A stretch of 64,000 bases of DNA from a plasmid: sequence record NZ_CP035507.1. The stretch is one strand, 5' to 3'. Below are positions 7,223-61,536 of the stretch, piece after piece (the first letter of the stretch is position 1; the number at the start of each line of letters is the position of its first letter). The notes under the pieces were generated by a model. The model made no database searches, was not told the DNA's origin, and saw nothing but the letters and a program-made list of their open reading frames with translations. A program made the position numbers and the translations under genes.

Positions 7223-7225
7223 GCC

Positions 7226-10926: not shown

Positions 10927-10999
10927 GAAAAATGGTTCTCTCGTCTGCTGTCGAACACTTACGGCTCGCCAGGTTTGGATTGAAAAGAGTGCGTCTCAA

Positions 11000-13951: not shown

Positions 13952-13955
13952 TCGA

Positions 13956-18908: not shown

Positions 18909-19753
18909 CGGGGCGGCAGGGCGAACTTCCCTTCGAGGAAGGGATCGACGCGATCCTGCGCGATACGGCGGACCGGATCGACGAGCTTTACCGCGCCGCC
19001 AGCGAACCAGGCGCCCGCCCGCCGTGGGTGGACCTGTTCGACAGGATCGCGGGTCAAACCCACATGGCCCCGTTCAACCTGATGCTGGCCGACCTCCAGC
19101 GCCCGGGCGCGCGCTACATTGCGTTCCCCGACAAATGGCGGGAGATTGGACGGACGGTGAAACCGGCTTCGATCCCGATCGTCGTCCTGTGGCCGTTCTG
19201 CCCGGTGCGCTGCGCCTATGAACTGGCGGATACAACCGGGGACCCGGTCGACGACGCCCTTCTGGACAAGGTCTTCGGCGAGCCCGTCGAGGTTCGGGAT
19301 GGCCTCATCGACCGTGTAGCGCGCCGCGCCCTGAAGGAGGACCGGATCGACGTGAAATCGGTGAGCCTCGCCTCTACCCTTGCCGGTGATGCCCGCGCGG
19401 TTCCGGTGGATCCGACGGCCAAGGGTAAACCCATAGGACCGGGCTGGGTCGTCCGGGTCAACTCGAACCTCAATACGAACGCGCAATTCACAACGCTCGT
19501 CCACGAACTGGGCCATGTCTACCTCGGCCATCTGGGCGGGAACGGGAAGAAGTGGCCGGATCGGCGGCCCCCTCAATTGGATGTACGGGAGTTCGAAGCA
19601 GAGGCGGTGACATACATCGTCTGCAAGCGATTTGGCTTGCAGTCGAACTCGGCTGAATATCTGAATGGTTATTTGAAAGAGAAAACCATTGAATTTGTAA
19701 GTCATTCTGCGATCGCACGGGCTGCGGGAAGGATTGAACAACATGCCCGTTAG
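18905..19753 (+). CDS. HEXXH zinc-metallopeptidase-like protein (ImmA/IrrE / M78-like)
   Basis: 282 aa. TLVHELGHVYLGHL followed by EFEAEAVTYI (candidate third zinc ligand Glu). The start overlaps the MTase stop by 4 nt (ATGA). Confidence 0.6.
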   Translation: MTGRQGELPFEEGIDAILRDTADRIDELYRAASEPGARPPWVDLFDRIAGQTHMAPFNLMLADLQRPGARYIAFPDKWREIGRTVKPASIPIVVLWPFCPVRCAYELADTTGDPVDDALLDKVFGEPVEVRDGLIDRVARRALKEDRIDVKSVSLASTLAGDARAVPVDPTAKGKPIGPGWVVRVNSNLNTNAQFTTLVHELGHVYLGHLGGNGKKWPDRRPPQLDVREFEAEAVTYIVCKRFGLQSNSAEYLNGYLKEKTIEFVSHSAIARAAGRIEQHAR

Positions 19754-19779
19754 TGCAGGTTTGGCGGAGTGATGACAGT

Positions 19780-26181: not shown

Positions 26182-28349
26182 CAGACACAATGACCAAGCG
26201 GGTCTCCTACGACATCGGCTGCATGAAGAGCCTGCGGAAACTGCCGGACCGGGTTGCGCTCCGGTTCATGGACCTGATGACCAAGTATATGTCGGACCCG
26301 TCCGCGAATGGGCTGAACCTGGAAACGGTGGAAGGATCGAGGGACAGCTCGATCAAGTCCATGCGGGTCGACCAGGGGTATCGGGCCATCGCCTTCGAGG
26401 TCGGCCGCGACATCATGTTCGTGCATGTCAACGAGCACGACAAGGCCTACCGCTGGGCGGCAGGGCGCCGGGTCAAGCTCGACCCGGAAACGAACCGGAT
26501 CCGGGTGATTGAGGAGGTGGACGCGGTTGTCGAACCGGTGGCGACGCCGGATACCTACGCTCCTCGCCTCTTCGACGAGGTGACGGATGCAAGGCTGCGC
26601 GCCCTCGGCGTGCCGGAGGAGGAGCTGACGGCCGTTCGTCAGATCCCCACGATCGAGGCGCTGGAAGGCGCGGAGGACCGGTTCGATCCGCTCACCTATC
26701 AGATCCTTTACGCGGTCGCGGCCGGTTATGCGGATGAGGAAATCCAGTCCCTGACCGGGGTCGGCGCGGAACCGGACGCGGAACCGCAGCAGCCCGCCGC
26801 GGAGCTGACCTTCGGAAAGCTGATCGAGACCGAGCAGAGCCGCCAGACCATCTTCATTCCCGAAAGCGAGGAGGAGCTGCGCCGCGTTTTCGAGGAGGGG
26901 CTTGAGGGCTGGCGCGTGTTCCTGCACCCCGAACAGCGCAAGATCGCCTACCGGGACTACAACGGGCCGGTTCTGGTCCGGGGCGGGGCTGGTACCGGCA
27001 AGACTGTCGTCGCGATGCACCGGGCCAAGCACCTTGCAGACCAGATCAAAAACGATCCGACCCGATCCGGCCAGCGGGTCCTTCTGACCACCTTCACGAC
27101 CAGCCTCGCGCATGACATCGAGGCGAACCTCCGGACCCTGTGCCCTGACCATCTGGACGCCCGCCCGCCCCGGATCGAGGTGATCAACCTCGACCGCTGG
27201 GTCTCTCAGTTCCTCAAGCGCAAGAGCTTCGCCCGCGAGGTCGCCTTCTTCGGCGAGGCGCGGGACCGGCTGGACCAGGTGTGGAAGGAGGTCTTCGATG
27301 ATCACGAGCTGCCCGAGGGGCTGTCTGAGCCGTTCGTTCGCGCGGAATGGGCGCAGATCGTCCAGGCGAAGGGGCTGACCGATCAGAAGGGATACCTGAA
27401 GGCGTCCCGGGCCGGCCGGGGCACCCCTCTCGACCGCAAGAAGCGGGCGGTGCTGTGGGACATCTTCGCCGATTACCGGGCCCGGCTGATCAGCGAAGGG
27501 CTCGCGGAGCCTGACGACGCTTACCGCGAGGCGACCGAGATCCTGACCTCCGAAGCGCCGAACCTGCCCTACAGCGCGGTCATCGTCGATGAGGCGCAGG
27601 ACATGGGCGAACAGGCGTTCCGGCTGATCCGCGCGATCATGCCCGAGACCCCGGCGGGGGACCGGAACTCCCTCTTCATCGTGGGCGACGCGCATCAGCG
27701 GATCTATGGGCGGCGGGCCGCCATGTCCGCCTGCGGGATCAACGTGCGCGGCCGCTCGAAGCGCCTCCGCCTGAACTACCGGACCACGCAGGAGATCCGG
27801 GCCTGGGCGGTCTCGGTTCTCGAGGGGGTCAGCGTTGACGATCTTGATGAAGGGACGGATACCCTACGCGGTTATGTCAGCCTCATGCGCGGGGCCGCCC
27901 CCGAGCTGGTCGGGTGCCGGACAGAGGCGGAGGAGCTGGACGGGCTGGTGGCCTGGGTCCGGGCCCTGCCGCCCGACCAGATCCGCCTCTCCGACATCGG
28001 GGTCCTGTGCGCGCGTCGCGCCGACGCGGACCGGGTTCAGGCGGCGCTCCGCGCGGCCGGTATCGAGACGGTGATGCTCCAGTCCGGTGCGGACGACCGG
28101 TCCGTTCCGGGGATTCGGATCACCACGATGCACCGGGCGAAGGGGCTCGAGTTCTTCGCCGTGGCGATCCCCTTCCTGTCCGAGGCGGCCTTCCCGCCAC
28201 CGGGTGCGCTCCGGGCCGCCGTGGATCCGGCAGATAAGGAGGACATTATCATGCAGTACCGGTCCCTCCTGCATGTCGCTGCGACCCGGGCGAAAAAAGC
28301 TCTCCGCATTTCATGGTCGGGGACGCCAACTGGCATTTTCACGGTCTGA
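26178..28349 (+). CDS. UvrD/PcrA-like superfamily-1 helicase with an N-terminal RelE/ParE-fold domain
   Basis: 723 aa. Residues 1-100 end in YRAIAFEVGRDIMFVHVNEHDKAY, the RelE/ParE C-terminal beta-strand signature. Helicase Walker A VRGGAGTGKTVVAMHRA. Motif II AVIVDEAQDMG. C-terminal TMHRAKGLEF. The start overlaps the upstream stop (ATGA). Confidence 0.75.
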   Translation: MTDTMTKRVSYDIGCMKSLRKLPDRVALRFMDLMTKYMSDPSANGLNLETVEGSRDSSIKSMRVDQGYRAIAFEVGRDIMFVHVNEHDKAYRWAAGRRVKLDPETNRIRVIEEVDAVVEPVATPDTYAPRLFDEVTDARLRALGVPEEELTAVRQIPTIEALEGAEDRFDPLTYQILYAVAAGYADEEIQSLTGVGAEPDAEPQQPAAELTFGKLIETEQSRQTIFIPESEEELRRVFEEGLEGWRVFLHPEQRKIAYRDYNGPVLVRGGAGTGKTVVAMHRAKHLADQIKNDPTRSGQRVLLTTFTTSLAHDIEANLRTLCPDHLDARPPRIEVINLDRWVSQFLKRKSFAREVAFFGEARDRLDQVWKEVFDDHELPEGLSEPFVRAEWAQIVQAKGLTDQKGYLKASRAGRGTPLDRKKRAVLWDIFADYRARLISEGLAEPDDAYREATEILTSEAPNLPYSAVIVDEAQDMGEQAFRLIRAIMPETPAGDRNSLFIVGDAHQRIYGRRAAMSACGINVRGRSKRLRLNYRTTQEIRAWAVSVLEGVSVDDLDEGTDTLRGYVSLMRGAAPELVGCRTEAEELDGLVAWVRALPPDQIRLSDIGVLCARRADADRVQAALRAAGIETVMLQSGADDRSVPGIRITTMHRAKGLEFFAVAIPFLSEAAFPPPGALRAAVDPADKEDIIMQYRSLLHVAATRAKKALRISWSGTPTGIFTV

Positions 28350-28368: not shown

Positions 28369-29469
28369 TCAAACCATGAGCCAATACCGCGTATGGCGCC
28401 GCTCCCCGGTACGGCTAAGCGCGCCCATCTCCACCAGGTCCTGCAGGTCCCGCGTTGTGGTGGCGCGTGACGTGCCGGTTATGGCGATGTAGTTCTCGGC
28501 GCTGAGGCCGCCTTTGAACCCGTCGGGCCCCTCGCGGAACATGCGCTCAATCACCTTGGCTTGTCGCTCGTTCAGTCGATCACGGAACTGGTCGTAGAAC
28601 TTCGCCTTGGCGATGAAGAACGCGACCCGTGTCAGCGTTACCTGCTGCGCCTTCAGAACGATCTCGGCGAACCAGATCAGCCAGCCGGTTACGTCCAGCG
28701 TCTTCTGGTGGGTTTCGAGCTGGTCGTAGTAGGCTTTCCGGTCCCGTTCGATCGTATAGGCCAGCGCGATTAGGCTCGGCTGGCCGATGTTCTGCGCAAG
28801 GGACTTTTCCGCCAAGGCGCGGCCGAGGCGACCATTGCCGTCCTCGAAGGGATGGATGCTTTCGAACCAGAGGTGCCCAAGCGCCGCGCGGGTTAGTGCT
28901 GGCAGGGGCGTTGTGCCGTCTGGCGCCGTTCGGTTGAACCAGTCGACGAACACGTCCATCTCGCCCTGGACCTGCGCGGAGGGCGGCGCCTCGAAATGCA
29001 CCGTCGGCCGGTCGATGCGACCGGAGACGATCTGCATCGCGTCGGCATGTCGCCGGTAGGCCCCGATGGTTTCGAGCCCGCGGTCATGTGCCAGGAGCAT
29101 CCCGTGCCATCGGCTGAGGGTCTCGTGGGTCAGAGGCGCGCCGTAGGTCGAGTAGACGTCGACCATCATCTCTGCGACGCCCTGTTCCTTGGGCTTCGAT
29201 GGCGCACCGTCAGTGATCAGACCGAATTGCCGCCGGAGGGAGGATTGCACACTGCCCCTGTCTAGCACCTCGCCTTCGATGGCGCTTGTCCGCATCGCCT
29301 CTTCACTCAGAAGTTCGATGCGCAGGCGGTCGCGTTCATTGCCGGTCACATGGCGGACGGCGCCGAGAATCTCGCCGGATGACAGTAGGAACCGCCGCTC
29401 GAGAGGTTCGATGGCAGCGCTGTCATAGACGAAATTCGGCCAGTCGGGTTGATTCCAGTTCCAGCGCAT
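28369..29469 (-). CDS. Fic/DOC family protein, class II (intramolecular inhibitory helix) with C-terminal wHTH
   Basis: Fic motif HPFEDGNGRLGR. Upstream inhibitory motif TSAIEG of the form (S/T)xxxE(G/N). 366 aa. Confidence 0.85.
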   Translation of the reverse strand: MRWNWNQPDWPNFVYDSAAIEPLERRFLLSSGEILGAVRHVTGNERDRLRIELLSEEAMRTSAIEGEVLDRGSVQSSLRRQFGLITDGAPSKPKEQGVAEMMVDVYSTYGAPLTHETLSRWHGMLLAHDRGLETIGAYRRHADAMQIVSGRIDRPTVHFEAPPSAQVQGEMDVFVDWFNRTAPDGTTPLPALTRAALGHLWFESIHPFEDGNGRLGRALAEKSLAQNIGQPSLIALAYTIERDRKAYYDQLETHQKTLDVTGWLIWFAEIVLKAQQVTLTRVAFFIAKAKFYDQFRDRLNERQAKVIERMFREGPDGFKGGLSAENYIAITGTSRATTTRDLQDLVEMGALSRTGERRHTRYWLMV

Positions 29470-32453: not shown

Positions 32454-34791
32454 GGCGCGCGGCGTTGGGCCCGCCCTCTTCGATCGTAACTGGAGCCGGG
32501 TCTCGGGCAGCTGGCAGGGACTCGCGAAGAAGGCGCAGATGGTCCGGGCAGCGCGTGGCTACTCGCCGGCCATCTTCAAGCCCATCTCGAAAGGCGGGTG
32601 CCACACGGGCGCCCAGCTCAAGGCCCAGCTGACCTACCTCACCACAAAGTCGAGCCACATCCTCGACAGCCGCGGCACCCATGATGGCAAGAAGACCCTG
32701 ACCGAGGCCGAGATCGACCGGGTCGTGCGGCGCTTCGAGAACCAGTGGGGCGAGCGGCACAGTCCGAAGCTCGGCCATACCTCGCATCTCCTGATGGCCT
32801 TTCCTGTGGGCACCAGCGGCGAAGAGGTGCGCGCGATCACCGAGGCGGTCTGCGAGCGGTTCTTTCAAGGTGAGGGGTCGCAATTCGACTATATTGCTGC
32901 AATACACCAAGATCGCGCGCATCCACATGCGCATATCGTTCTGAACCGCCGCAGCAAGGATGGCGAAATGTTCTTTCTCGGGAAGGATCACCACTTCAAC
33001 TACGACGCCTTCCGGGTGGCGATGGTCGAGGCGGCGCAGGTCCACGGGATCCGACTCGAGGCCACACGGCGTCTTGACCGGGGGGTCACGACCTACCGTG
33101 CCGAGATCGACGAGGTCTACAAGGCACGTGACGAAGGCCGACCGCCCGTCGAGCGCCAGCGCACAGGCGCTGATCTCGCCGCAGCCCTGGAGACGGTGGC
33201 GCGCAATGCGCTGACTTATCGCGGTCTTGCAGCAGAGGCATCCCGGTCGAACTTCGATGACGCGGCCGAGGCGCTCGAGCGGGCCAGCACCATCCTTGCC
33301 AGTGGCGGTCAGATTCAATCTGACGGAGCCATCTACATGTCCCAAGACGAAACAGCGTTCGACACGCTGATCACCGAGTTTTCCCAGAACATCCGTCAGA
33401 TCGAAGCGGCGATCGACCGGGCACCCGCATCCGAGCGACCGGAGATCGAGCGCAAGCTCACCGATGTGCTGGCCTCCGTTGCGCATCTCAATCCGCTTGG
33501 AGACCGCTCGGCTGCACTTCTCGACGCACCATCCCGGGATGGGGTCTATGCGCGGGCCAACATGCGTGAGGACCAGATGGGACGCCTTGACGACGCCTCG
33601 GTGAAGGCGCGCCTCAGCGAGGCGCTGCAAGGCACGGGCATCGACCCCGAAGCCGTAGCCGCCCGCATGCGCGAGGGTGCTGGCAACGCCGCGCTCGAAC
33701 GACAATGGCTGGCGCAGGATCTGCGCGCCATCGCCAACGCGGGTGACCTCGATCTGGAGAAGGGCGAGGACCGCGAGGAAGCGCTCGACCGGCTGGAAGC
33801 CGTACATGTCCGCCTGGGCGATACTCTGACCGATGCGCGCATCCTGCGGGCTGTCGATGAGGTGGATGAGACCGAGGATGACCAGGTTGCCCTGGCCGAA
33901 AGGTTGACGCTGCCTGAGCGCGAGCGCGCGGCGGGTGAGCCCGACATCTTCGCCCCATCCGAGCGCCGGGATTTCCAGGAGCTCGTCGCCCAGTTCCGTC
34001 GAACGGATTTCGACCATCCCTTCTCGGACGATCCGTCCGTGCGCCGAGCCGGTGCCGTCGAGGTGGAAGAAGCCCGCGCCGCCTTCAACGCCTTCGCGCA
34101 GCGGTCGCCCGATCATGCCGAACTGGCCTCGATGGCCTGGGACAAGATCACCGACAGCCGCAAACCGCAGGAGTTCGCCGTCGAGGAAAAAGACCGCACC
34201 CTCAACGCCGGCGACATGGACCTCGCGCTGCGCGATCCGATGCAACATCTCGGCCCGATCACCGAAGACGACCGCACCCTCGCGCGCTACCGCGCGGAGA
34301 TGCCGGACGAGGAGTTCGGGGCGGCGGTGCAGGAGGAAATCAACCAGCTGCGCGCCATGGGCGCATCACGCGCCTACATCAGCGAACGGAGCTTCGACAT
34401 CGAGGATCAGGCGCGGCAGGATTACGCCGAGCGGCGTTTCATGGCTGAGACTGCCCCTGATGTGTTGACCTTCCTGCAGCGGGCCGAGGCCGAGGATGTG
34501 AAGCCGCTCTCCGAGACCGACGGGCAGCGCCTGATCGCCCAGATCGACCGCAACCTCACGCCGAACGCTGTGACTGCCCTCCGCGCAGGACACGCGGATG
34601 TGCTGGACAAGTTCACCGAGGACCCAATTCGGCAGTTGGAACTTGCCAAGGCCTATCTGGAAAGCAGCGAAGTAACGGCGCACGGCCCCGCGATGGAACG
34701 GGTGCTGGATGCCCTGGCCGAGGAGCAGATCGAGGCGCAGCGCGCCCGCCATGCCGCGGCCTATGGCGAAAAGGGGATCACCCATGGATAA
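32440..34791 (+). CDS. Relaxase/mobilisation nuclease (MobA/VirD2-type, MOBQ-like) with a long C-terminal extension
   Basis: N-terminal relaxase domain with HxH metal motif HQDRAHPHAHIVLNRR and YLTTKS. 783 aa. Confidence 0.8.
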   Translation: MARSEARGVGPALFDRNWSRVSGSWQGLAKKAQMVRAARGYSPAIFKPISKGGCHTGAQLKAQLTYLTTKSSHILDSRGTHDGKKTLTEAEIDRVVRRFENQWGERHSPKLGHTSHLLMAFPVGTSGEEVRAITEAVCERFFQGEGSQFDYIAAIHQDRAHPHAHIVLNRRSKDGEMFFLGKDHHFNYDAFRVAMVEAAQVHGIRLEATRRLDRGVTTYRAEIDEVYKARDEGRPPVERQRTGADLAAALETVARNALTYRGLAAEASRSNFDDAAEALERASTILASGGQIQSDGAIYMSQDETAFDTLITEFSQNIRQIEAAIDRAPASERPEIERKLTDVLASVAHLNPLGDRSAALLDAPSRDGVYARANMREDQMGRLDDASVKARLSEALQGTGIDPEAVAARMREGAGNAALERQWLAQDLRAIANAGDLDLEKGEDREEALDRLEAVHVRLGDTLTDARILRAVDEVDETEDDQVALAERLTLPERERAAGEPDIFAPSERRDFQELVAQFRRTDFDHPFSDDPSVRRAGAVEVEEARAAFNAFAQRSPDHAELASMAWDKITDSRKPQEFAVEEKDRTLNAGDMDLALRDPMQHLGPITEDDRTLARYRAEMPDEEFGAAVQEEINQLRAMGASRAYISERSFDIEDQARQDYAERRFMAETAPDVLTFLQRAEAEDVKPLSETDGQRLIAQIDRNLTPNAVTALRAGHADVLDKFTEDPIRQLELAKAYLESSEVTAHGPAMERVLDALAEEQIEAQRARHAAAYGEKGITHG

Positions 34792-36754
34792 GGGCAAGAT
34801 CGCGGGCGGGATCCTCAGCCTGACGCTGGTTGGCCTCGCCATCGGCTATGTCGTGGCCACGGGCTACCTCACCATTCGCTATGGACTGTCAACGCAAGCC
34901 TTCGATGCCACCCTGCTCGCGCGGGAATACCGGGCGCTTGGTGCCAGCGCCCCGCGGGACTTCCTCTGGGTGAACCTGATCCTCGCAGGCTTCGGCGTTG
35001 CCTCGCTCATGTTGAGTGTCACGCTTCTCGGCGATGCCCTGACGCGCTTCGGCACGACGCATTGGCAGACCCGGGGCGAGATGAAGAGGAATGGTTTCTT
35101 CGCCAAGCCGGGTGGCGGCTTCCTTCTCGGCAAGCTCGGCCCCCCGAAATCGAAGCGCCCCTTCCTCGTCTCGAAGACCTTCCCACACGCACTGATCGTG
35201 GCACCCACGGGTCGGGGCAAGGGCGTGGGCTTCGTGATTCCGAACCTGCTCACCTACAAGGGCTCGGCCGTGGTGCTTGACGTGAAGGGAGAGAACTTCC
35301 GCGAGACATCGCGCTTCCGTGCCACCATGGGCGACAAGGTGTTCCGGTTCGCGCCGACCGACTGGGACCGCCCGACGCATCGCTATAACCCGCTGGCGCG
35401 CATCGCGGCGATGACCAATCCCGACCGGCAACAGATGGAACTGAAGCTCACCGCGAAGCTCTTCCTGCAGACCGACAACGAAAAGCTGAGTGGGCTACTA
35501 GCAGGCGGCATTGATCTGTTCGTGGCGGCCGGTCTTCTGGCCTTCGAGCGCGGCGTGCCGACCATCGGTGAGATCTACCGCATCACCGCCTCGGGCGGTG
35601 ACAAGCAGAAGGAGTACCTGAAGCGCGCGCAGGAGGTGAAGAACACCTCGGCCAAGCTGATCTTCGAGCGCATGGCCTCGACCAACAACGACACCCTGAC
35701 CTCTTACCTCTCTCTGCTGATGACCTCGGGTCTCGACACCTGGGACAACCGTGCGATCGACGCGGCCACTGCGACCTCGGACTTCTCTTTCCGGGATATC
35801 CGGCGTCGCCCTCACGCGATCTACCTCGTGGTCGAGTCCGAAATGATCCGCCCTTTGGCCCCGCTGATCCGGCTGTTCTTCTCGGACCTGATTGCCTCGC
35901 TGCAGGCGCAGGAGCCCGACGATGACGAGCCATGGCCCGTGATGATCATGCTCGACGAGTTCGACCGCCTTGGGAAAATGCCGATCGTAGCCGAGAGCAT
36001 CAAGACTCTGCGCTCCTTCGGCGGCAACCTTGCCATTGTCACCCAGACCATCCCGGCGCTGGACGAGATCTATGGCGAGAACACACGCCGGTCGCTGCAG
36101 GGCGGCGCGGGCGTGAAGCTCTACCTCACCCCGTCCGAGCAGAAGACCATCGAAGAGCTGAGCCAGGCCGTCGGCAAGACCACCAAGCGCGTCGTAACCC
36201 GATCCCGCGCGGTCGGACGTAACCCCTTCGAGGGCCGGAGTGTTTCCGAGCGGACAGAGGACACGCCGCTCCTGACCGAGGATCAGGCTCGGCGGATGGA
36301 CCTCGACGAGGTGATCCTCGTGATCGACGCGCAGATGCCGATCCGGGCGCGGCGGATCAAGTATTTCGAAGACCCGGCGCTGAAGGTGCTTCACGCGGGT
36401 CAGGCGGGGAGTTTCCCGTACCCTGATGAGGACGGGCTGAGGCGGGATCGGCAGATGACCGAAACGCGGGAGACGGTTGAGAAGCTGAAACAGGAGTTAC
36501 AGGAGGTTCGGGCGGCGGCAGGGGCGCAGGGAGTTGCAAAGGTGCCAAATGAAGAGCCACCCAAGGGGCCACATGTGCGAAAACCTGAAATCGTAAGTCG
36601 GGCGCGTGGCCGAGCGGCCCGGGCTGCTGCGGGTATTGCCGGAGGAAGTCAATTGTCGTTCGACCCTGAAGCACTTGGGTTGAAGGAGGCAGACAAGACC
36701 ATGCTGGCGGCGGCGGTTCAGACGACACGGGCCATTATTGCCGAGTATGCGTGA
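34784..36754 (+). CDS. virD4: Type IV coupling protein VirD4/TraG
   Basis: N-terminal TM segments. Walker A LIVAPTGRGKGVGFVIPN. The start MDKGKIAGG at 34784 overlaps the relaxase stop. Confidence 0.85.
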   Translation: MDKGKIAGGILSLTLVGLAIGYVVATGYLTIRYGLSTQAFDATLLAREYRALGASAPRDFLWVNLILAGFGVASLMLSVTLLGDALTRFGTTHWQTRGEMKRNGFFAKPGGGFLLGKLGPPKSKRPFLVSKTFPHALIVAPTGRGKGVGFVIPNLLTYKGSAVVLDVKGENFRETSRFRATMGDKVFRFAPTDWDRPTHRYNPLARIAAMTNPDRQQMELKLTAKLFLQTDNEKLSGLLAGGIDLFVAAGLLAFERGVPTIGEIYRITASGGDKQKEYLKRAQEVKNTSAKLIFERMASTNNDTLTSYLSLLMTSGLDTWDNRAIDAATATSDFSFRDIRRRPHAIYLVVESEMIRPLAPLIRLFFSDLIASLQAQEPDDDEPWPVMIMLDEFDRLGKMPIVAESIKTLRSFGGNLAIVTQTIPALDEIYGENTRRSLQGGAGVKLYLTPSEQKTIEELSQAVGKTTKRVVTRSRAVGRNPFEGRSVSERTEDTPLLTEDQARRMDLDEVILVIDAQMPIRARRIKYFEDPALKVLHAGQAGSFPYPDEDGLRRDRQMTETRETVEKLKQELQEVRAAAGAQGVAKVPNEEPPKGPHVRKPEIVSRARGRAARAAAGIAGGSQLSFDPEALGLKEADKTMLAAAVQTTRAIIAEYA

Positions 36755-36774
36755 CTGGCCCATACCGGCCAGTC
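36753..36774. terminator. Hairpin at the virD4 stop (possible bidirectional terminator between convergent virD4 and the pAgo gene)
   Basis: gactggcc-catacc-ggccagtc, an 8 bp perfect stem. No clear U-run. Confidence 0.3.
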
Positions 36775-36878
36775 GGCGTTATGCAAAGGCGCTGCTCTCG
36801 CAGCGTGTATAGCTGCCATTCGATAGGGCAAGCACAATGCCTCGATCCGCCTTCAGTCACAGTGTGCAGGCGAAGGAG

Positions 36879-38327
36879 CTACATAAAGAAGCTATAGCGC
36901 GTTTGCACCCGGTCATTTTCTCTAACGTACTTGAGTATCTTTCCCACCTTGCGTGACGCAGCGATAGTAATCGGGTCTCGGTTGTCGAATTGCGTATTGT
37001 TCCAATTCATCTTGCTCAATGCCAATATCTCTGCGGCATTGTGGGTGACCGGTTGAGAAGGAGCCTGTGACCGGATCATCAAAGGCTTGGGAATGTACAT
37101 CCCGGTGTATGTTTTGAAGAAGTCCACACCGCCCCGGCTGTACAATATCGCACGGTCGCGATCCAAACGCAGCAACGTACCGCGCAAGGGTGGAAACTGC
37201 CCGTCGCGGAACAGCCGGAAGGCGCTTGGGGCGACCGCCATGCAGTCCAAGTTATCAATTCGGCATTCCTCTACGGCGGCGTCGAAACCCGCCATTTCTT
37301 CCCTGTGAAAGGGCGACGTCTTATGCAGCACCACCCGGGCCGGATACTGCGAATGCTGGTCGTAGTAAGCCTGCATCGAGCGGGAAAGCAGGTCGTGCGC
37401 GTGAGCCTCTGTCATATAGGGCCGCCGGTCGTCCGACAGCTTGGCGGCGCGCCCCCCGCGCAGGATCATGCCTTCGCCCCGCTCGTCGAACATCTGCGCG
37501 GTGCTGGTTTCAAGGTACTCGCCGCCGCACGACTCGTGGAAGCTAATTCCCACGAAGCAGGAACGCATCTGCCGGGAATCCCGCGCCAAACGCCACGGTA
37601 GACCGCCCGCCTTGTAGTACAGCGCCGTGAACAAGTTCCATGCGCGGGTTGCGTCCTCCTGCACCTCGCGAAAACTGTCAGTTTTCGTCTTTCGGGGAAT
37701 CTTGATCGTTGGATCGTACAGCGTGGGCCAGAAGATCTGAATGGGCAGGCCGAACTCCATCGCAGCGATCTTCAATCGCGCACGGAAGTCCAACCCTGAG
37801 GGCGCCGCCGCGTCCTCCACCACATCATCGTCGTCGGCGCTCACATTCACCGCCGCAATCACGTCCAGCGGCAGGCCGATTAGCACCACGTCTGGCCGGG
37901 TGTTGCCCTCGGCCAGCGCCCGCAGCTCCGCCACGAACAGGTCGGCGTAGCGATCCGCTAGGTCCAGCGGATTTGTGTTCTTCAACTTATTCAGTGTTCG
38001 GGCCGGTATTGTGCGGGTGTCCTGCTCGTCGCAGGTGAAGGCAACTCGGAACGGGCCGTCAGACGTGCAGCCTGGGAACGGCGGATACAGGTTCGTCAGG
38101 CGGGTGTCCGCTTTGCCATCGATGCCAGCGGCGCAACGCGCGAACCAGCCTTGGGTGCCCTCCACCGTTTCCGTGTCACCGATCAGACCCACTCGCACGG
38201 CGGTCGGCGCGCCGGTTTGTCCGGCGTCCAGCGGGCCGTAGTCCATGAGGCCGAACCGAATGTCGATGTGGCGATGCGCCTGCCCGAACTCCAACTCGGG
38301 TTCCGGCAAGTGGGACAGCTTCATCAT
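36879..38327 (-). CDS. Short prokaryotic Argonaute (MID-PIWI, catalytically inactive), SPARDA-type
   Basis: MID/PIWI boundary motif YYKAGGLPWRL (compare eukaryotic Ago ..KLGGVN..). The PIWI GxDV position reads CFVGISFHES and the RDG position reads YSRGGVDFF, so the catalytic Asp residues are lost. The ATG at 38327 overlaps the upstream stop in an ATGA. The listed TTG start is at 38375. Confidence 0.75.
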   Translation of the reverse strand: MMKLSHLPEPELEFGQAHRHIDIRFGLMDYGPLDAGQTGAPTAVRVGLIGDTETVEGTQGWFARCAAGIDGKADTRLTNLYPPFPGCTSDGPFRVAFTCDEQDTRTIPARTLNKLKNTNPLDLADRYADLFVAELRALAEGNTRPDVVLIGLPLDVIAAVNVSADDDDVVEDAAAPSGLDFRARLKIAAMEFGLPIQIFWPTLYDPTIKIPRKTKTDSFREVQEDATRAWNLFTALYYKAGGLPWRLARDSRQMRSCFVGISFHESCGGEYLETSTAQMFDERGEGMILRGGRAAKLSDDRRPYMTEAHAHDLLSRSMQAYYDQHSQYPARVVLHKTSPFHREEMAGFDAAVEECRIDNLDCMAVAPSAFRLFRDGQFPPLRGTLLRLDRDRAILYSRGGVDFFKTYTGMYIPKPLMIRSQAPSQPVTHNAAEILALSKMNWNNTQFDNRDPITIAASRKVGKILKYVRENDRVQTRYSFFM

Positions 38328-39616
38328 AGCAGCAAGCCCTCCGTGTCCGGTGGGGTGGCGCGCACGGGTTTCCAAAGGTCGTCGGGCACACCAAAGTCCG
38401 CAACCAGCTTGTCGACTGGCGCGAGGGTCAGATATGGATATGCTCGCCGAAACATATCCTCCTGCTCACCCGTACAGAGGTAAGCCCGCCACATGCCGAA
38501 TTGGCCGCGCACGTCGGGATTCCACTCCATGCGCTTGATCTTGGACAGATGGTCGCCGCCGTATCCGTCTTTCTCTCTGCCGTCTCGCGTGAAGTGGTAG
38601 GTTGGCGTTATCTGCACGAACCACTCTTCGCCGATTCGCATAAACTGCCAACTAAATGCCGAATGCCGCCAGAAGCTCCGATACTGCTTGGCGACGAAGC
38701 GGTCAGTATTCTTCTTTTCCGCATAGTAAGTAATCTTGCGATCACGCTTGCCAGGGTTCGGGCGGAAATAGAGCGTGTGGTGATCGCGGTCGTAACTCAT
38801 ATCCTGGCGCACCATTTCCTTCATCGCGCGGTTCAGCAGATCCACGAAATCGCGCTCCCTGTCCGGGTCGTCCGATAGCGCCCATTCAGACAAATCGAAC
38901 TCTTCCATAGCGCCCGTGTCGCAGGCTTCTCGCCACGGTAGCTCGTCCAGGTTGCGGAAAGACAGCACCGCCCCGCCGCGTAAAATTGCCTCGCCCGGCG
39001 GATAGGGGTTGTGTTCCTTCACCCTGCGCCAGAACTCACCCACGCTCTTGGCATCGGTCGGCGCCCAGTACAGCTTCGTCGCCATGGCCGAGACGCGCAG
39101 CAGATTGGTAGTCAATTCTTCGGTTCGACGTGGGGCCGAGTAGTAGCTGCCAGGCCGCGCGGTGGCGGCCACCTCTCGCAGCGCCCTGGCAGCGTCGGCG
39201 GTGAACAGGTCCGCCGTCTTATCGAACTGCACCTTGCGGTTGGCCCGGTTCTGGGGGTCTCTGAACCAAGTGCGTACGTCCTTCCAGTAGGCGCGGTCTG
39301 CGGTTAAGTCTACCACGATCAGCACCACGGGCGCGGTGCCGAATGTCCAGTAGTCGATATCGCGCTCGTCGCAGGGCCAGTGAAAGCCAGTGTCCGTGTC
39401 TCCTGGCAGACGATTTCCAGTGGCCTTGCTCTGAAACTGGACAATCTGGTTGGCAACCTCACCCGTTACCGGGTCGCGGATTTCGATGGTGCCGTCGATA
39501 CCGGCTTCCACGCCACCAGTTTCGTAGAACAGGTACTCCATTGCAGCCACAACCTTTCGGATGTGCGCTATTCCTTGTTCACCTTTTACCCCAGAAGTAT
39601 GTATTTTCTTGCCCAA
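38324..39616 (-). CDS. DREN (DUF4365, Mrr-like PD-(D/E)xK nuclease)-APAZ fusion partner of the short pAgo
   Basis: 430 aa. N-terminal ...GIDGTIEIRDP...IVQFQSKATG... matches the PD-(D/E)xK nuclease signature of DUF4365. The C-terminal about 250 aa are consistent with an APAZ domain. Gene order and coupling match SPARDA operons. Confidence 0.7.
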   Translation of the reverse strand: MGKKIHTSGVKGEQGIAHIRKVVAAMEYLFYETGGVEAGIDGTIEIRDPVTGEVANQIVQFQSKATGNRLPGDTDTGFHWPCDERDIDYWTFGTAPVVLIVVDLTADRAYWKDVRTWFRDPQNRANRKVQFDKTADLFTADAARALREVAATARPGSYYSAPRRTEELTTNLLRVSAMATKLYWAPTDAKSVGEFWRRVKEHNPYPPGEAILRGGAVLSFRNLDELPWREACDTGAMEEFDLSEWALSDDPDRERDFVDLLNRAMKEMVRQDMSYDRDHHTLYFRPNPGKRDRKITYYAEKKNTDRFVAKQYRSFWRHSAFSWQFMRIGEEWFVQITPTYHFTRDGREKDGYGGDHLSKIKRMEWNPDVRGQFGMWRAYLCTGEQEDMFRRAYPYLTLAPVDKLVADFGVPDDLWKPVRATPPDTEGLLL

Positions 39617-39824
39617 GGAACGACACCACTAGAATTTGTTGCTGCTCGACGAGCGAGCACCATAGGGTGTGCTGGCGACAATTTCAATGTCATCGGTCTG
39701 CCATCACCTAAGCAAGGCTGTGGTCAAGAGGGCTTTGATGGTGTGACCGCCCTCTTCGTGGATCATCGATGACTCACCCTGGCACACAGATGCCGTCGGG
39801 TGGCGGTCACACCATCAAAGCCCT

Positions 39825-40850
39825 TCACCGCCCCAACCGCTTTGCCCTCTCAGCCATCCGCACCACTTTCGCGCTCGCGGTCGCCGCAGCGCTCCGAACG
39901 GCAGCGGGTGCTTGCACCGCCCCCCGCCCGATCGCCTCACCCGTGGTCAGCGCACCGATCCGCGCCCTACCCTGCACGCCTGACGTGTTCACCAAGCCCC
40001 GGAGCACCCCCGCAGATCCGCTGACAATCGCAGGTGCCGCGGCCACCATCAGGTTCCCCGAGATCCCGCGCACGATCAGGGGCGTAGCCGCGACGAACCC
40101 CTTTGCCAAGAACACCATGACGAAGAACGGCACTAGTGAGCCGATGTTGGTGGCCGAGTTCGGATCGCCGAGCTGGGCCAGCAGCGAATTCGCCATGCCG
40201 ACGACGGTCGAGAACATGGCGGCGATGACGACGGGATAGAAGGCGTAGCTGATCGTCGTCGAGACCCATCTGTGGAAGAAATCCTTGGTCGCATCGAAGA
40301 GCGACAGAGCGATCATGATCGGCGCAAGGCCAAGCATCAGGGTCAGCATCATCTTGGCGAAGATGAGGACGATTCCGGTCATGAAGCCGAGCAGACTCAA
40401 GAGCACCAGGCCGATGCCGCCGAGGATCGCGCCCGTCATCCAGTTCAGATTGCTGCCGATCGCGTTCAAATATGTCGCGAAGCGCTCGATCAGGTTGTCG
40501 AATTCTCCCGCGAAATGGGTTGCGCCTGCGCCACCTCCGCCGACCGACGAAACCAGCGCGCCGGCGACATAGTCGAGGCCTCCGATCACGGCGTTGGACA
40601 CCGCGTTGAAATTGGCCCAGTTAAACGCGAAGAGACCTATCAGCGTCAGCTTGATCAGGTACCAGAAGAAGCTGGCCCCATCCATGCTGCGGAATTGGAA
40701 GGCCATGTTGATACAGACGCCGATCAGGGAAAGCGTGACCATCAGAAGGACGATCGTGCCGGTATTGCTGGCCACAGCCCCGAACTGGGACTCGGCAGCA
40801 TCGACAAGGAAACCGTCGGCGGTTTCGACCATCCAACTGACGACGCTCAT
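39825..40850 (-). CDS. virB6: T4SS VirB6/TrbL-family inner-membrane protein
   Basis: Polytopic membrane protein with Gly-rich C-terminal tail. Position in the virB operon. Confidence 0.8.
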   Translation of the reverse strand: MSVVSWMVETADGFLVDAAESQFGAVASNTGTIVLLMVTLSLIGVCINMAFQFRSMDGASFFWYLIKLTLIGLFAFNWANFNAVSNAVIGGLDYVAGALVSSVGGGGAGATHFAGEFDNLIERFATYLNAIGSNLNWMTGAILGGIGLVLLSLLGFMTGIVLIFAKMMLTLMLGLAPIMIALSLFDATKDFFHRWVSTTISYAFYPVVIAAMFSTVVGMANSLLAQLGDPNSATNIGSLVPFFVMVFLAKGFVAATPLIVRGISGNLMVAAAPAIVSGSAGVLRGLVNTSGVQGRARIGALTTGEAIGRGAVQAPAAVRSAAATASAKVVRMAERAKRLGR

Positions 40851-54081: not shown

Positions 54082-54949
54082 TAGGCTCAGGACCCATTGA
54101 TCTGCTTGAGGCCGCTCGGCTTGCGTGATTCAAGCTACCGAACTGACGGTGGTGATCATGAGCAACCTTTTCTGGCTGACCGACGAGCAGATGGAGCGGT
54201 TGAAGCCGTTCTTTCCAAAGAGCCATGGCAAGCCGCGGGTCGATGACCGGCGCGTGCTGAGTGGCATAATCTTCATCAACCGCAATGGGTTAAGATGGTG
54301 CGACGTGCCCACTGAGTATGGCCCGCCGAAGACCCTTTACAACCGCTGGAAGCGATGGGGCGATATGGGGGTCTTCGCCCGGATGATGGAGGGATTGGCC
54401 TCAGAAGGCTGCGAGGAGAAGGTCGTCATGATCGACGCGACCTACCTGAAGGCGCACCGCACGGCCTCAAGCCTGCGGGCGAAAAAGGGGGGCCCGACGA
54501 TCAACGCGGGCGTCTGATCGGGCGCACAAAGGGCGGGCTGAACACGAAGCTGCATGCTGTGACCGATGCCAGGGGACGGCCCCTGAAGTTCTTTATGACG
54601 GCGGGCCAAGTCAGCGACTACACCGGCGCCGCCGCCCTGCTGGGCAGCCTGCCCGGTGCCGAATGGCTGATTGCCGACCGGGGCTACGATGCCGACTGGT
54701 TCAGGGAAGCGTTGAAAGACAAGGGGATAAAGCCCTGCATCCCAGGCCGGAAGTCGCGCGGCAAGGCCGTCCGCTACGACAAGCGCCGCTACAAACGGCG
54801 TAATCGCATCGAGATCATGTTCGGCAGGCTCAAGGACTGGCGCCGCGTCGCTACCCGCTACGATAGATGTGCGAAGACCTTCCTCTCCGCCGTCGCACTG
54901 GCCGCAACCGTCTTGTTCTGGCTTTGACGATCAATGAGTCTGGACCCTA
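54082..54949 (+). mobile_element. IS5-family (IS427-group-like) insertion sequence, copy 1
   Basis: Identical at the nucleotide level to 59793-60660 (offset 5711). Flanked by TA at both junctions. Carries the orfA/orfB transposase with an A_AAA_AAG slippery site. Confidence 0.85.
54125..54927 (+). CDS. IS5/IS427-group transposase (orfA 54125-54517 plus orfB 54355-54927, joined by a programmed -1 frameshift)
   Basis: The frames differ by -1. The slippery heptamer gcg-aaa-aag-ggg (A AAA AAG) sits near 54485-54495. The DDE region has ...IADRGYDADWF... and the C-terminal YDRCAKTFLS motif typical of IS5-family transposases. Confidence 0.8.
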
Positions 54950-61535: not shown

Positions 61536-61536
61536 C

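What the first reader, a model, noticed from the sequence alone, without database searches (positions are those of the whole stretch)
36879..39616. SPARDA-type short pAgo system (DREN/DUF4365-APAZ plus inactive MID-PIWI pAgo) wedged between virD4 and the virB operon
A two-gene minus-strand operon with an ATGA overlap. The upstream protein has an Mrr-like PD-(D/E)xK N-terminal domain (GIDGTIEIRDP...QFQSKATG) followed by an APAZ-like region. The downstream protein has the Ago MID/PIWI KxGG motif (YYKAGGLPWRL) but substitutions at the catalytic GxDV and RDG positions (GISF, SRGG), as in short pAgos that signal to an associated nuclease. SPARDA systems were described only recently.

The locus is visibly lower in GC than its flanks and is bounded by a hairpin at the virD4 stop, which suggests a separate acquisition into the conjugation module. 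It would defend the element host while the element itself is conjugative.
Basis: partly seen in the sequence, partly recalled or inferred. Interest (0 to 1): 0.55.

Follow-up and report, generated by a model that had tools for sequence, protein, structure and literature searches.

The report
Plasmid-borne SPARDA Argonaute defence operon
This is an intact two-gene SPARDA defence system (an inactive short Argonaute paired with a nuclease it switches on); it is a new, fairly divergent member of a family described in 2023-2026, and it sits in a swappable cargo slot inside the transfer machinery of a conjugative plasmid.

Summary
The observation and the interpretation both hold.

**The genes.** Window 36879-39616 (minus strand) carries two overlapping genes (ATGA overlap).
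- The first encodes a 430-aa DREN(DUF4365)-APAZ protein.
- The second encodes a 482-aa MID-PIWI short pAgo.
- Both match PADLOC class I short-pAgo models end to end (E=6e-146 and 5e-166). Their closest solved structures are the Xanthobacter, Enhydrobacter and Novosphingopyxis SPARDA complexes.

**Conserved residues.**
- The nuclease residues E37, D41, Q62 and K64 are all present.
- The guide 5'-phosphate pocket (R182, K186, Q197, K239) is present.
- The U2 contacts (Q223, N231) are present.
- The PIWI catalytic Asp that corresponds to TtAgo D546 is T337.
- dN/dS is 0.04-0.07, so the genes are under purifying selection.

- The RDG-equivalent motif is HKTS, not SRGG.
- The virD4 hairpin belongs to the plasmid backbone. 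It is not an insertion scar.

**New context.**
- Related alphaproteobacterial plasmids (80-91% identical flanks) carry other cargo in the same virD4|virB6 slot: AbiL, Qat, CBASS, PDC-M16, metal transporters or IS elements.
- Close SPARDA relatives sit in unrelated defence islands.

**Verdict.** This is a new member of a known kind, of moderate-to-low interest. Its biochemical activity was not tested.

The parts
38324..39616 (-). DREN-APAZ effector gene (430 aa, TTG start, TGA stop at 38326-38324)
   Evidence: The ORF is listed. It matches PADLOC Aga_REase-PNTD1-PNTD2 over aa 1-422 of 429 model positions, E=6.2e-146. It matches PDB DREN-APAZ chains 9qbp_A, 9jsb_D and 9qbq_A at E=1e-46 to 1e-42. 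The TTG start is conserved in L012, and the conserved KKI..GEQG block begins at residue 3 in 31 orthologs. Metagenome gene callers used a later ATG (405 aa), which would delete helix alpha1.
39167..39616 (-). DREN / DUF4365 PD-(D/E)xK nuclease domain (about aa 1-150) with E37, D41, E45, Q62, K64
   Evidence: Pfam PF14280 matches aa 13-149 at E=1.8e-23. The residues align with the mutationally validated XauSPARDA E37/D41/Q62/K64 and NbaSPARDA D41/Q60/K62. In 31 orthologs, D41, E45 and Q62 are 100% conserved, position 37 is always E or D, and K64 is present in 29 of 31.
38327..39154 (-). APAZ region (about aa 155-430), including a mildly acidic C-terminal tail
   Evidence: PADLOC PNTD1-PNTD2 parts of SIR2- and REase-APAZ models match aa 145-394. 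The PDB alignment to Nba DREN-APAZ runs to aa 418. NbaSPARDA APAZ spans residues 161-442 (PMC12774872). The last 35 aa contain 6 acidic and 3 basic residues.
36879..38327 (-). short pAgo gene (482 aa, ATG 38327, stop 36881-36879)
   Evidence: PADLOC pAgo_I PDLC02376 matches aa 2-482 over model positions 1-455 of 455, E=5e-166. PDB SPARDA Ago chains match at E=2e-114 to 2e-103. The AF2 model (pLDDT 78, pTM 0.82) superposes on SPARDA Ago chains at TM 0.85-0.91. The exact protein occurs on 13 metagenome contigs.
37578..38327 (-). MID domain (about aa 1-250) with the 5'-phosphate pocket R182, K186, Q197, K239 and base contacts D180, Q223, N231
   Evidence: It aligns to XauAgo N179/Q222/N230 and NbaAgo R183/K187/K240/N181/Q224/N232. 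In the 34-sequence family, K186, Q197, Q223, N231 and K239 are invariant, R182 is R in 28 and H in 6, and D180 is D in 28 and N in 6. hhalign places FRARLK..PIQI against TtAgo RNRLK..PSQI, in the low-confidence part of that alignment.
36882..37577 (-). catalytically dead PIWI domain (about aa 251-482)
   Evidence: hhalign (94% probability) and hmmsearch both align RVVLHKTSPF with TtAgo RVLLLRDGRV, so D546 corresponds to T337. H335, K336 and S338 are invariant and position 337 is T or S in all 34 sequences. S262 (GISF) lies in predicted strand beta1 at the D478 position, judged by topology and spacing. No acidic residue lies in PITIAASRKV opposite TtAgo D660, in the low-confidence part of the alignment.
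38338..38342 (-). GGAGG ribosome-binding site, 10 nt upstream of the pAgo ATG, inside the end of the DREN-APAZ gene
   Evidence: Read directly from the sequence.
39659..39687 (-). promoter-like TTGAAA-17 nt-TATGGT upstream of the operon
   Evidence: Found by the consensus scan. The element is conserved (TTGAAT..TATTGT) in the otherwise unrelated upstream context of L012, and homology between the two loci starts at 39692. Function was not tested.
39729..39824 (.). 96-bp palindromic repeat element (perfect 23-bp arms, 50-nt spacer) that fills the gap between the virB6 stop and the operon promoter
   Evidence: The arms were found by the repeat finder. The predicted RNA fold is -72.7 kcal/mol, z=-5.9. 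It is absent from related plasmids at this position. Copies occur in 95 plasmid records. Stand-alone copies lie just after gene ends in L108 and L109, and some copies abut IS110-family transposase genes. It may act as a terminator or insulator (inference).
36753..36774 (.). 8-bp-stem hairpin overlapping the virD4 stop codon, at the right-hand junction of the cargo
   Evidence: Found by the repeat finder. pMM259 has a compensatory version, TCGGCC/GGCCGA. Homology to the L012 cassette ends at 36762, inside the loop.
36790..36805 (.). second small hairpin (CGCTGC-TCTC-GCAGCG) downstream of the pAgo stop; possible terminator for the convergent transcripts
   Evidence: Read from the sequence and seen in the RNA fold. 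It is conserved in L012. The fold of this region as a whole is no better than shuffled sequence (z=-1.2), so this feature is weak.
34709..36754 (+). virD4 coupling-protein gene (flank, converges on the operon)
   Evidence: Pfam T4SS-DNA_transf at E=1.8e-82. It is 80-91% identical to plasmid homologs.
39825..40850 (-). trbL/virB6, the last gene of the virB operon (flank, same strand as the operon)
   Evidence: Pfam TrbL at E=4.6e-37. Homology to related plasmids stops exactly at its stop codon.

Best explanation
The locus is a functional SPARDA system: a short prokaryotic Argonaute of the S2B clade with its DREN-APAZ nuclease partner. It is carried as accessory cargo on a MOBP/MPF_T-type conjugative plasmid of marine or soil Alphaproteobacteria.

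**Proposed mechanism (steps 1-5 are inferred from the characterised homologs; nothing here was tested for activity).**
1. The two proteins are translated from one transcript (ATGA overlap) and form a 1:1 heterodimer through APAZ and PIWI.
2. The MID pocket (R182, K186, Q197, K239, plus Mg2+) binds the 5'-phosphate of roughly 20-nt RNAs derived from abundant transcripts. It probably prefers a 5'-AU start, through D180, Q223 and N231.
3. The PIWI domain cannot cut, because T337 replaces the catalytic Asp. It acts only as a sensor.
4. Pairing of the guide with complementary single-stranded DNA of a highly transcribed or replicating invader (plasmid or phage) triggers a conformational relay. The complexes then polymerise into filaments.
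5. In the filament the DREN domains form tetramers with a competent E37/D41/Q62/K64 active site. They degrade DNA indiscriminately, which kills or arrests the cell and stops the invader from spreading.

The cassette reached this plasmid by replacement of the cargo in a variable slot between the 3' ends of virD4 and the virB operon. It benefits the plasmid by protecting its host, or by excluding competing elements.
For: **Family assignment.**
- Full-length PADLOC hits at E=6e-146 and 5e-166, and DUF4365 at E=1.8e-23.
- PDB sequence hits to SPARDA chains at E=2e-114 for the Ago and 2e-46 for DREN-APAZ.
- The predicted fold superposes on Eae, Nba and Xau SPARDA Ago chains at TM 0.85-0.91. These rank ahead of SPARHA, SPARTA and SPARSA.

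**Functional residues.**
- All four experimentally essential DREN residues are present and conserved in 31 orthologs.
- The 5'-phosphate and U2 contacts are invariant.
- D546 of TtAgo corresponds to T337 by two methods.

**Selection and integrity.**
- dN/dS is 0.04-0.07 for both genes against two relatives.
- Both reading frames are intact, and the operon is 100% identical on several independent metagenome contigs.

**Expression signals.**
- A promoter-like element is conserved across different genomic contexts.
- A ribosome-binding site precedes the pAgo gene.

**Mechanism of the homologs.** It comes from PMC12205087, PMC12774872 and bioRxiv 10.1101/2025.04.08.647717 and 10.1101/2023.06.08.544223.

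**Cargo-slot origin.** See and the GC analysis.
Against: - No activity was measured.
- Identity to characterised systems is only moderate: 43% to XauAgo over 464 positions and 29% to Nba DREN-APAZ over 410. Guide preference, substrate range (dsDNA only as in Xau/Eae, or also ssDNA/RNA as in Nba) and target spectrum (plasmids or phages) cannot be read off.
- The base-specific contact to guide A1 is Asp (D180) rather than the Asn of Xau and Nba. Asp is, however, the majority state in the family.
- The DREN-APAZ gene uses a TTG start with no obvious ribosome-binding site.
- Three of the four tetrad positions (1, 2 and 4) are mapped only with low confidence.
- The closest chromosomal copy in a species-representative genome (Pseudoroseicyclus tamaricis) is frameshifted in both genes. 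Such cassettes therefore do decay.
Confidence: 0.85

Rival explanations
1. The molecular machine is the same, but its selected role is plasmid-versus-plasmid competition or plasmid maintenance rather than phage defence of the host. Guides made from resident transcripts would sense incoming or co-resident competing replicons, including the single-stranded DNA that enters during conjugation. The system would then abort those cells.
For: - XauSPARDA and EaeSPARDA gave no robust protection against 12 phages, but plasmid pCDF raised their cytotoxicity by roughly 10^4-fold.
- SPARDA needs single-stranded targets.
- The cassette sits inside the transfer region of a conjugative plasmid.
- 44 of the 91 PLSDB plasmids with a short-pAgo homolog are typed as conjugative.
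Against: - NbaSPARDA does protect against some phages.
- The other cargoes seen in the same slot (AbiL, Qat, CBASS) are annotated as anti-phage systems.
- Killing the host also kills the resident plasmid.
- Nothing in the sequence distinguishes the two roles, and they are not mutually exclusive.
Confidence: 0.3
2. The cassette is a decaying or silent passenger: it is not expressed, or the proteins have lost function.
For: - The closest species-representative chromosomal copy has frameshifts in both genes.
- The first gene uses a TTG start without a clear ribosome-binding site.
- SPARDA expression is toxic in E. coli even without an invader.
Against: - Both ORFs are full length against the profiles.
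- All catalytic and guide-binding residues are retained.
- dN/dS is 0.04-0.07.
- The promoter-like element is conserved.
- The sequence is identical on several independent contigs.
Confidence: 0.05
3. It belongs to a different short-pAgo class (SPARTA, SPARSA, SPARHA or the Mrr/SMEK-APAZ type), or it is an active long-type Argonaute.
For: - APAZ-region similarity to the SIR2-APAZ models is weaker than to the REase-type model (E=1e-29 against 6e-146).
- SPARHA chains (9om4) are the next-best structural relatives.
- Some plasmid homologs of the pAgo are paired with SMEK-domain proteins.
Against: - The N-terminal domain is DUF4365, with the DREN catalytic residues, and has no TIR, SIR2 or HNH hit.
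- The protein has only 482 aa and no N or PAZ domains.
- D546 corresponds to T337.
Confidence: 0.02

Closest known systems
XauSPARDA / EaeSPARDA (Xanthobacter autotrophicus Py2, Enhydrobacter aerosaccus; PDB 9qbl, 9qbq, 9qcc, 9qbp)
   Same: - The operon order is the same (DREN-APAZ, then the short pAgo).
- The domain architecture is the same.
- The DREN catalytic numbering is identical (E37, D41, Q62, K64).
- The U2 contacts are the same (Q222/N230 correspond to Q223/N231).
- These are the best sequence hits (E=2e-114 and 8e-114 for the Ago, 2e-46 for DREN-APAZ) and the best fold hits (TM 0.85-0.90).
   Different: - The Ago is only about 43% identical to XauAgo.
- The A1 contact is Asp rather than Asn179.
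- Here the system is carried on a conjugative plasmid inside the T4SS region.
- Activity, substrate range and filament formation were not tested.
NbaSPARDA (Novosphingopyxis baekryungensis; PDB 9jsb, 9jsp, 9jsz, 9jt2, 9vx1, 9vx6)
   Same: - The architecture is the same.
- D41, Q60 and K62 correspond to D41, Q62 and K64.
- R183, K187 and K240 correspond to R182, K186 and K239.
- Q224 and N232 correspond to Q223 and N231.
- Fold TM is 0.85-0.91.
   Different: - DREN-APAZ is about 29% identical over 410 positions.
- This protein has a 2-residue insertion in the beta2-beta3 hairpin of DREN relative to Nba.
- Nba cleaves ssDNA and RNA collaterally and protects against some phages. Which behaviour applies here is unknown.
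SPARHA (short pAgo with HNH-APAZ; Acidithiobacillus caldus, PDB 9om4)
   Same: It shares the S2B-type short pAgo and APAZ regions (Ago E=1e-64; APAZ region E=6.5e-17) and filament-forming nuclease logic.
   Different: Its effector nuclease domain is HNH, not DUF4365/DREN.
SPARTA / SPARSA (TIR-APAZ or SIR2-APAZ with a short pAgo)
   Same: They share the short inactive pAgo plus APAZ partner, RNA-guided DNA sensing and abortive infection. Background is in PMC9097488.
   Different: Their effectors are NADases, they form tetramers rather than filaments, and the Ago is only 19-23% identical in structure-based alignment.
Variable cargo hotspots in conjugative elements (for example the SXT/R391 ICE hotspots; comparison from my own knowledge, not tested here)
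   Same: A conserved transfer backbone has a fixed junction at which unrelated defence systems alternate between relatives.
   Different: - The element family is different (alphaproteobacterial MPF_T plasmids).
- The slot also carries metal transporters and IS elements.
- No dedicated recombination mechanism was identified.
- I found no paper describing this slot.

Membership tests
SPARDA (short pAgo + DREN-APAZ, clade S2B) | Two co-oriented adjacent genes, with the effector-APAZ gene upstream of the short pAgo gene | tested here: met
   The genes lie at 38324-39616 and 36879-38327, both on the minus strand, with an ATGA overlap. The same pairing is seen in 31 or more orthologous loci.
SPARDA (short pAgo + DREN-APAZ, clade S2B) | N-terminal DUF4365/DREN PD-(D/E)xK nuclease domain with the catalytic E, D, Q-x-K residues | tested here: met
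   PF14280 hits at E=1.8e-23. E37, D41, Q62 and K64 align with the residues whose mutation abolishes Xau and Nba activity. They are conserved in 31 orthologs.
SPARDA (short pAgo + DREN-APAZ, clade S2B) | APAZ domain C-terminal to the nuclease | tested here: met
   The PADLOC REase-PNTD1-PNTD2 model is covered over positions 1-418 of 429. The alignment to the APAZ part of PDB DREN-APAZ chains extends to aa 418. No structure was predicted for this protein.
SPARDA (short pAgo + DREN-APAZ, clade S2B) | pAgo made of MID and PIWI only, with no N or PAZ domains | tested here: met
   The protein has 482 aa. It matches the 455-position pAgo_I model end to end and the 482-485-aa SPARDA Ago chains.
SPARDA (short pAgo + DREN-APAZ, clade S2B) | PIWI domain lacks the DEDX catalytic tetrad | tested here: met
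   TtAgo D546 corresponds to T337 by hhalign (94% probability) and by hmmsearch. The TtAgo catalytic residues were verified on its sequence. Position 337 is T or S in all 34 family members. Positions 1, 2 and 4 are mapped only with low confidence.
SPARDA (short pAgo + DREN-APAZ, clade S2B) | MID pocket for a 5'-phosphorylated guide (R/H-K-Q-K) | tested here: met
   R182, K186, Q197 and K239 correspond to NbaAgo R183, K187 and K240 and to TtAgo R418, K422, Q433 and K457 (low-confidence part; the residue roles are from my own knowledge). They are invariant or nearly so.
SPARDA (short pAgo + DREN-APAZ, clade S2B) | Use of RNA guides with a 5'-AU preference to recognise DNA targets | tested here: inconclusive
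   The U2 contacts Q223 and N231 are conserved. The A1 contact is D180 instead of Asn. Guide chemistry cannot be determined from sequence.
SPARDA (short pAgo + DREN-APAZ, clade S2B) | Target-induced filament assembly, DREN tetramerisation and collateral nuclease activity that cause cell death | not testable with these tools
   This needs biochemistry, EM and in vivo assays. Of the Nba helix-alpha1 tetramer-interface residues E13, N17 and R20, this protein has E13, A17 and R20. These positions vary across orthologs.
SPARTA / SPARSA / SPARHA | TIR, SIR2 or HNH effector domain fused to APAZ | tested here: not met
   The effector domain is DUF4365. SIR2-APAZ PADLOC models match only the APAZ part (aa 145-389), and the HNH protein 9om4_A matches only aa 209-384.
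Catalytically active long-A pAgo | N-PAZ-MID-PIWI architecture with an intact DEDX tetrad | tested here: not met
   The protein has 482 aa. Only the MID-PIWI part aligns to long pAgos (6qzk and 9jh8, E about 4e-5, chain residues 474-749). D546 corresponds to T337.

The most novel reading that the evidence does not exclude
The junction between the 3' ends of virD4 and the virB operon may be a dedicated exchange hotspot for defence cassettes in a widespread family of alphaproteobacterial MOBP/MPF_T conjugative plasmids.
- Systems seen alternating there on 80-91% identical backbones are SPARDA, AbiL, Qat, CBASS and PDC-M16.
- Turnover may be helped by the palindromic repeat elements and IS110-type recombinases found at or near the junction.
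- A plasmid-borne SPARDA placed there may act mainly against competing conjugative DNA that enters as single strands.
Probability: 0.3. Interest if true: 0.5.

Novelty: new member of a known kind. Interest (0 to 1): 0.3.

Why it matters
- **New lineage.** It adds a well-supported, intact and moderately divergent SPARDA lineage (43% and 29% identity to the characterised proteins). SPARDA enzymes are being developed as PAM-free nucleic-acid detection reagents, so new orthologs with conserved active sites are useful candidates.
- **Natural carrier.** It shows that such a system can be carried by a self-transmissible, probably low-copy plasmid. This bears on the open question of whether SPARDA is mainly an anti-plasmid or an anti-phage system in nature.
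- **Cargo slot.** It points to a cargo slot in a common marine plasmid backbone where five different known or candidate defence systems alternate. A systematic survey could test this easily.
- **Limits.** None of this changes the understanding of how SPARDA works.

Tried and rejected
- **Pfam Piwi and NCBIfam.** PF02171 gave no hit. NCBIfam gave only a sub-threshold RsAgo hit (16 bits against a 700-bit cut-off). I treat these as sensitivity failures, because the PADLOC, PDB and fold searches are unambiguous.
- **Rfam.** A scan of 36500-40100 at E<=1 found nothing.
- **SRGG as the RDG position.** Rejected. Both profile methods put RDG opposite KTS, and SRGG falls next to a gap after the following strand.
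- **hhalign at very low stringency.** It aligned TtAgo D478 with D281 (QMFDERG). I do not trust this. It skips predicted strand beta1, and the spacing from the KAGG motif (K239+23 against TtAgo K457+21) favours S262 in GISF.
- **Hairpin as an insertion signature.** Rejected. pMM259, which carries a different cargo, has a compensatory version.
- **Discrete cassette ends.**
  - One relative (L012) shares 39692-36762, ending inside the hairpin loop.
  - Pseudoroseicyclus, Flavimaricola and a Phycisphaerae MAG share essentially only the two coding sequences.
  - No defined mobile-element ends, integrase or target duplication were found.
- **IS110 link to the 96-bp palindrome.**
  - In Haematobacter the transposase gene abuts the loop plus the right arm.
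  - No left arm was found on the far side of the IS.
  - Whether the element is an IS target or is derived from an IS end remains unresolved.
- **Literature.** Searches for a described T4SS-slot hotspot in Roseobacter-group plasmids found nothing relevant.
- **DREN-APAZ structure.** I did not predict it, because the orthologs I collected came from loci that the structure tool does not accept.

Full report
**1. Observation**

The reported interval holds two minus-strand ORFs, 38324-39616 (430 aa) and 36879-38375.
- Homologs of the second protein begin at MKLSHL. The real start is therefore the ATG at 38327, which overlaps the upstream TGA as ATGA.
- A GGAGG lies 10 nt upstream of that ATG.

The sequence between the flanking genes (36775-39824) is 59.5% GC. 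The window mean is 64.6% (sd 2.3), and this is the lowest-GC 3-kb stretch in the window (profile).

An 8-bp hairpin overlaps the virD4 stop at 36753-36774.

The flanks are virD4 (T4SS-DNA_transf, E=1.8e-82) on the plus strand and trbL/virB6 (E=4.6e-37) on the minus strand. The rest of the virB operon follows virB6.

**2. Identity**

Protein 1:
- Pfam DUF4365 matches aa 13-149 at E=1.8e-23.
- The PADLOC class I model Aga_REase-PNTD1-PNTD2 matches end to end at E=6.2e-146.

Protein 2:
- PADLOC pAgo_I matches end to end at E=5e-166.
- Pfam Piwi does not hit, and NCBIfam gives only a sub-threshold hit. I treat these as sensitivity limits.

Solved structures:
- The best sequence matches are the SPARDA complexes of Enhydrobacter aerosaccus and Xanthobacter autotrophicus (9qbp, 9qbl, 9qbq, 9qcc) and of Novosphingopyxis baekryungensis (9jsb and related entries).
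- E-values are 2e-114 to 2e-103 for the Ago and 2e-46 to 1.5e-42 for DREN-APAZ.
- SPARHA, SPARTA and SPARSA follow, with long pAgos far behind at about 4e-5.

Predicted fold:
- An AlphaFold2 model of the pAgo, built on a 34-sequence alignment (pLDDT 78, pTM 0.82), superposes on SPARDA Ago chains at TM 0.85-0.91.
- SPARDA chains rank ahead of all other classes.

Identity computed from the printed alignments is 43% to XauAgo and 29% to Nba DREN-APAZ.

**3. Functional residues**

DREN nuclease:
- XauSPARDA activity depends on E37, D41, Q62 and K64. NbaSPARDA activity depends on D41, Q60 and K62.
- This protein has E37, D41, Q62 and K64.
- I extracted 31 orthologs from loci next to pAgo homologs. 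D41, E45 and Q62 are invariant, position 37 is always E or D, and K64 is present in 29 of 31.

Start codon of DREN-APAZ:
- The conserved block KKI..GEQG starts at residue 3, and the TTG is conserved in a relative. This supports the TTG start at 39616.
- Metagenome gene calls of 405 aa start at M26 and would remove helix alpha1.

MID domain:
- The 5'-phosphate contacts (Nba R183, K187, K240) correspond to R182, K186 and K239.
- The U2 contacts (Xau Q222 and N230, Nba Q224 and N232) correspond to Q223 and N231.
- The A1 contact (Xau N179, Nba N181) is D180 here. Asp is the majority state in the family: 28 D and 6 N.

**4. PIWI tetrad**

I fetched TtAgo from pTT27 and confirmed D478, E512, D546 and D660 on its sequence.

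Profile comparison of the family against TtAgo aligns RVVLHKTSPF with RVLLLRDGRV. This holds for hhalign (94% probability) and, independently, for hmmsearch.
- D546 therefore corresponds to T337.
- H335, K336 and S338 are invariant, and position 337 is T or S in all 34 sequences.
- This alone excludes an intact tetrad.

SRGG lies after the next strand.

The GISF-for-GxDV assignment is plausible. S262 sits in the first predicted strand of the beta-beta-beta-alpha-beta unit, and its spacing from the KAGG motif matches TtAgo. It rests on topology, not on a confident alignment. A low-stringency hhalign run instead paired D478 with D281, which I discount.

**5. Selection and integrity**

- dN/dS against a 95%-identical and an 88%-identical relative (pAgo protein identity) is 0.042 and 0.053 for the pAgo, and 0.069 for DREN-APAZ against both.
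- The exact pAgo protein is found on 13 metagenome contigs. Those inspected have the same gene order, and the DNA over 36400-40100 is 99.97-100% identical.

**6. The element and the slot**

The window is about 90% identical and syntenic with Martelella mediterranea plasmid pMM259, and 80-90% identical with many conjugative plasmids, most of them from Rhodobacterales. The shared regions are the relaxase and virD4, the virB operon, and the first 25 kb of the window.

Homology breaks exactly after the virD4 stop and hairpin, and at the virB6 stop.

Between these points relatives carry different cargo:

| Plasmid host | Cargo between virD4 and virB6 |
|---|---|
| This window | SPARDA |
| Martelella (pMM259) | AbiLi + AbiLii (E=3.5e-69, 6.7e-8) |
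| Pukyongiella | Qat genes |
| Thioclava nitratireducens | CBASS with an HTH/ImmA pair |
| Leisingera | candidate system PDC-M16A/B (E=0, 1.5e-258) |
| Mameliella, Actibacterium | CDF transporter with ArsR |
| Celeribacter | nickel transporter |
| Pseudosulfitobacter | IS elements with GAF and adh genes |

In three further plasmids I examined only the region beyond virB6, with no adjacent virD4 listed. It held IS elements or stress and transport genes.

So the junction of the two convergent transfer operons is a general accessory-gene slot. In this small sample it often holds defence systems.

I found no paper describing this.

**7. Origin of the cassette**

Close relatives of the operon lie in unrelated contexts.

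| Relative (pAgo identity) | Neighbouring genes |
|---|---|
| P0001, 95% | reverse transcriptase-protease gene and DUF2924 |
| P0002, 89% | NOV_C, gasdermin-protease and integrase genes |
| P0006, 71-73% | Qat system |
| P0008, 69-70% | Allgaiera indica contig |
| Pseudoroseicyclus tamaricis 93%, Flavimaricola marinus 86% | large contigs, probably chromosomal |

- Homology to the window covers 39692-36762 in the first case, and only the coding sequences in the others.
- I see no defined element ends.
- The upstream boundary, 39692, includes a promoter-like TTGAAA-17-TATGGT that is conserved in the relative.
- The downstream boundary falls in the loop of the virD4 hairpin. The half nearest virD4 resembles pMM259 and the distal half resembles the relative. 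With a single comparison this may be coincidence.
- pMM259 has a compensatory version of the hairpin, so the hairpin belongs to the backbone.

**8. Mechanism**

By homology I propose the mechanism published for SPARDA.
- The two proteins form a heterodimer.
- The complex loads 5'-P small RNAs made from abundant transcripts.
- Pairing with invader single-stranded DNA triggers a beta-relay conformational change and filament formation.
- The DREN domains tetramerise and degrade DNA non-specifically, which leads to cell death.

This comes from PMC12205087, PMC12774872, 10.1101/2025.04.08.647717 and 10.1101/2023.06.08.544223.

What is inferred: guide type, target type, filament formation, substrate range and biological target. 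Xau and Eae SPARDA acted against plasmids but not against 12 phages, while Nba also acted against phages. Anti-plasmid competition therefore remains a live alternative role.

**9. Verdict**

This is a new member of a known kind. SPARDA has been described biochemically and structurally since 2023. Short-pAgo homologs occur on at least 91 PLSDB plasmids, 44 of them typed as conjugative.

The added value is a divergent, intact ortholog and the observation that it occupies a swappable slot in a common transfer backbone. Interest is moderate to low.

Noticed in passing
window 39729-39824: A 96-bp palindromic element (perfect 23-bp arms, 50-nt spacer; predicted RNA fold -72.7 kcal/mol, z=-5.9) lies directly after the virB6 stop. 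Similar copies occur in 95 PLSDB plasmid records, at 113 places. Some are stand-alone copies just after gene ends (Antarctobacter, Paracoccus). Others abut the start of IS110-family transposase genes (Haematobacter). It is not in Rfam. It is either a target of an IS110-type recombinase or a derivative of an IS end; this is unresolved.
   Followed up: partly
L001, L002, L003-L005, L019-L021, L110-L112 (the virD4|virB6 interval, or the region beyond virB6, of related plasmids): The same backbone junction carries AbiL (Martelella pMM259), Qat (Pukyongiella p2), CBASS with an HTH/ImmA pair (Thioclava pLX01), candidate system PDC-M16 (Leisingera pBMJM1_5), metal transporters, or IS elements. It is an accessory or defence cargo hotspot that I could not find described.
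   Followed up: yes
window 10754-28349 (+): A large cluster that is probably a second defence locus. It comprises a DrmD-like SNF2 helicase (1065 aa), a type IIG restriction-methylase (1662 aa, PADLOC E=2e-186), a 282-aa M78-like protein, a 2142-aa DruE-like helicase with an MZB/DUF1998 domain (E=2e-97), and a UvrD/GajB-like helicase (723 aa). It is shared with pMM259 and with Gemmobacter and Haematobacter plasmids. It fits no single named system cleanly.
   Followed up: partly
window 28369-29469 (-): A Fic/DOC protein with DUF4172 matches the PADLOC SoFic model at E=8e-41. It lies next to the virC1/parA-like gene and the mobC-relaxase module.
   Followed up: no
window 2861-9556 (+): These genes resemble those typical of plasmid leading regions: a 1453-aa strawberry-notch-type helicase (annotated in relatives as a bifunctional methyltransferase/helicase), a Toprim/DUF7146 protein and a YAcAr/DUF2493 SLOG protein.
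   Followed up: no
window 54082-54949 and 59793-60660: Two 100% identical 868-bp direct copies of an IS5-family element (DUF4096 + DDE_Tnp_1, in two overlapping frames) bracket two ABC-2 permease genes and a HlyD gene. They look like a composite transposon. Next to them are a fused PIN/MadM ORF and a TniA(C-terminal fragment)-TniB-TniQ module (60645-63416).
   Followed up: partly
L025 8593-11448 (Pseudoroseicyclus tamaricis NZ_JAAFYS010000001.1): This is the closest copy of the operon in a species-representative genome (93% pAgo identity, on a 1.4-Mb contig). Both genes have frame changes, near DREN-APAZ aa 194-215 and near pAgo aa 215-218. It is a decayed copy, or these are assembly errors.
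   Followed up: partly
L006-L011 (metagenome contigs identical to the window): Automatic gene calls give DREN-APAZ as 405 aa, starting at the internal ATG (M26). In L012 the call is 485 aa from an upstream start. Homology supports the 430-aa TTG start. Database entries for this protein family may therefore be mis-started.
   Followed up: yes
window 34709-34791: The virD4 ORF as listed (681 aa) overlaps the relaxase gene by 83 nt. The identical gene on metagenome contigs is called at 656 aa, so the true start is probably about 25 codons downstream.
   Followed up: no
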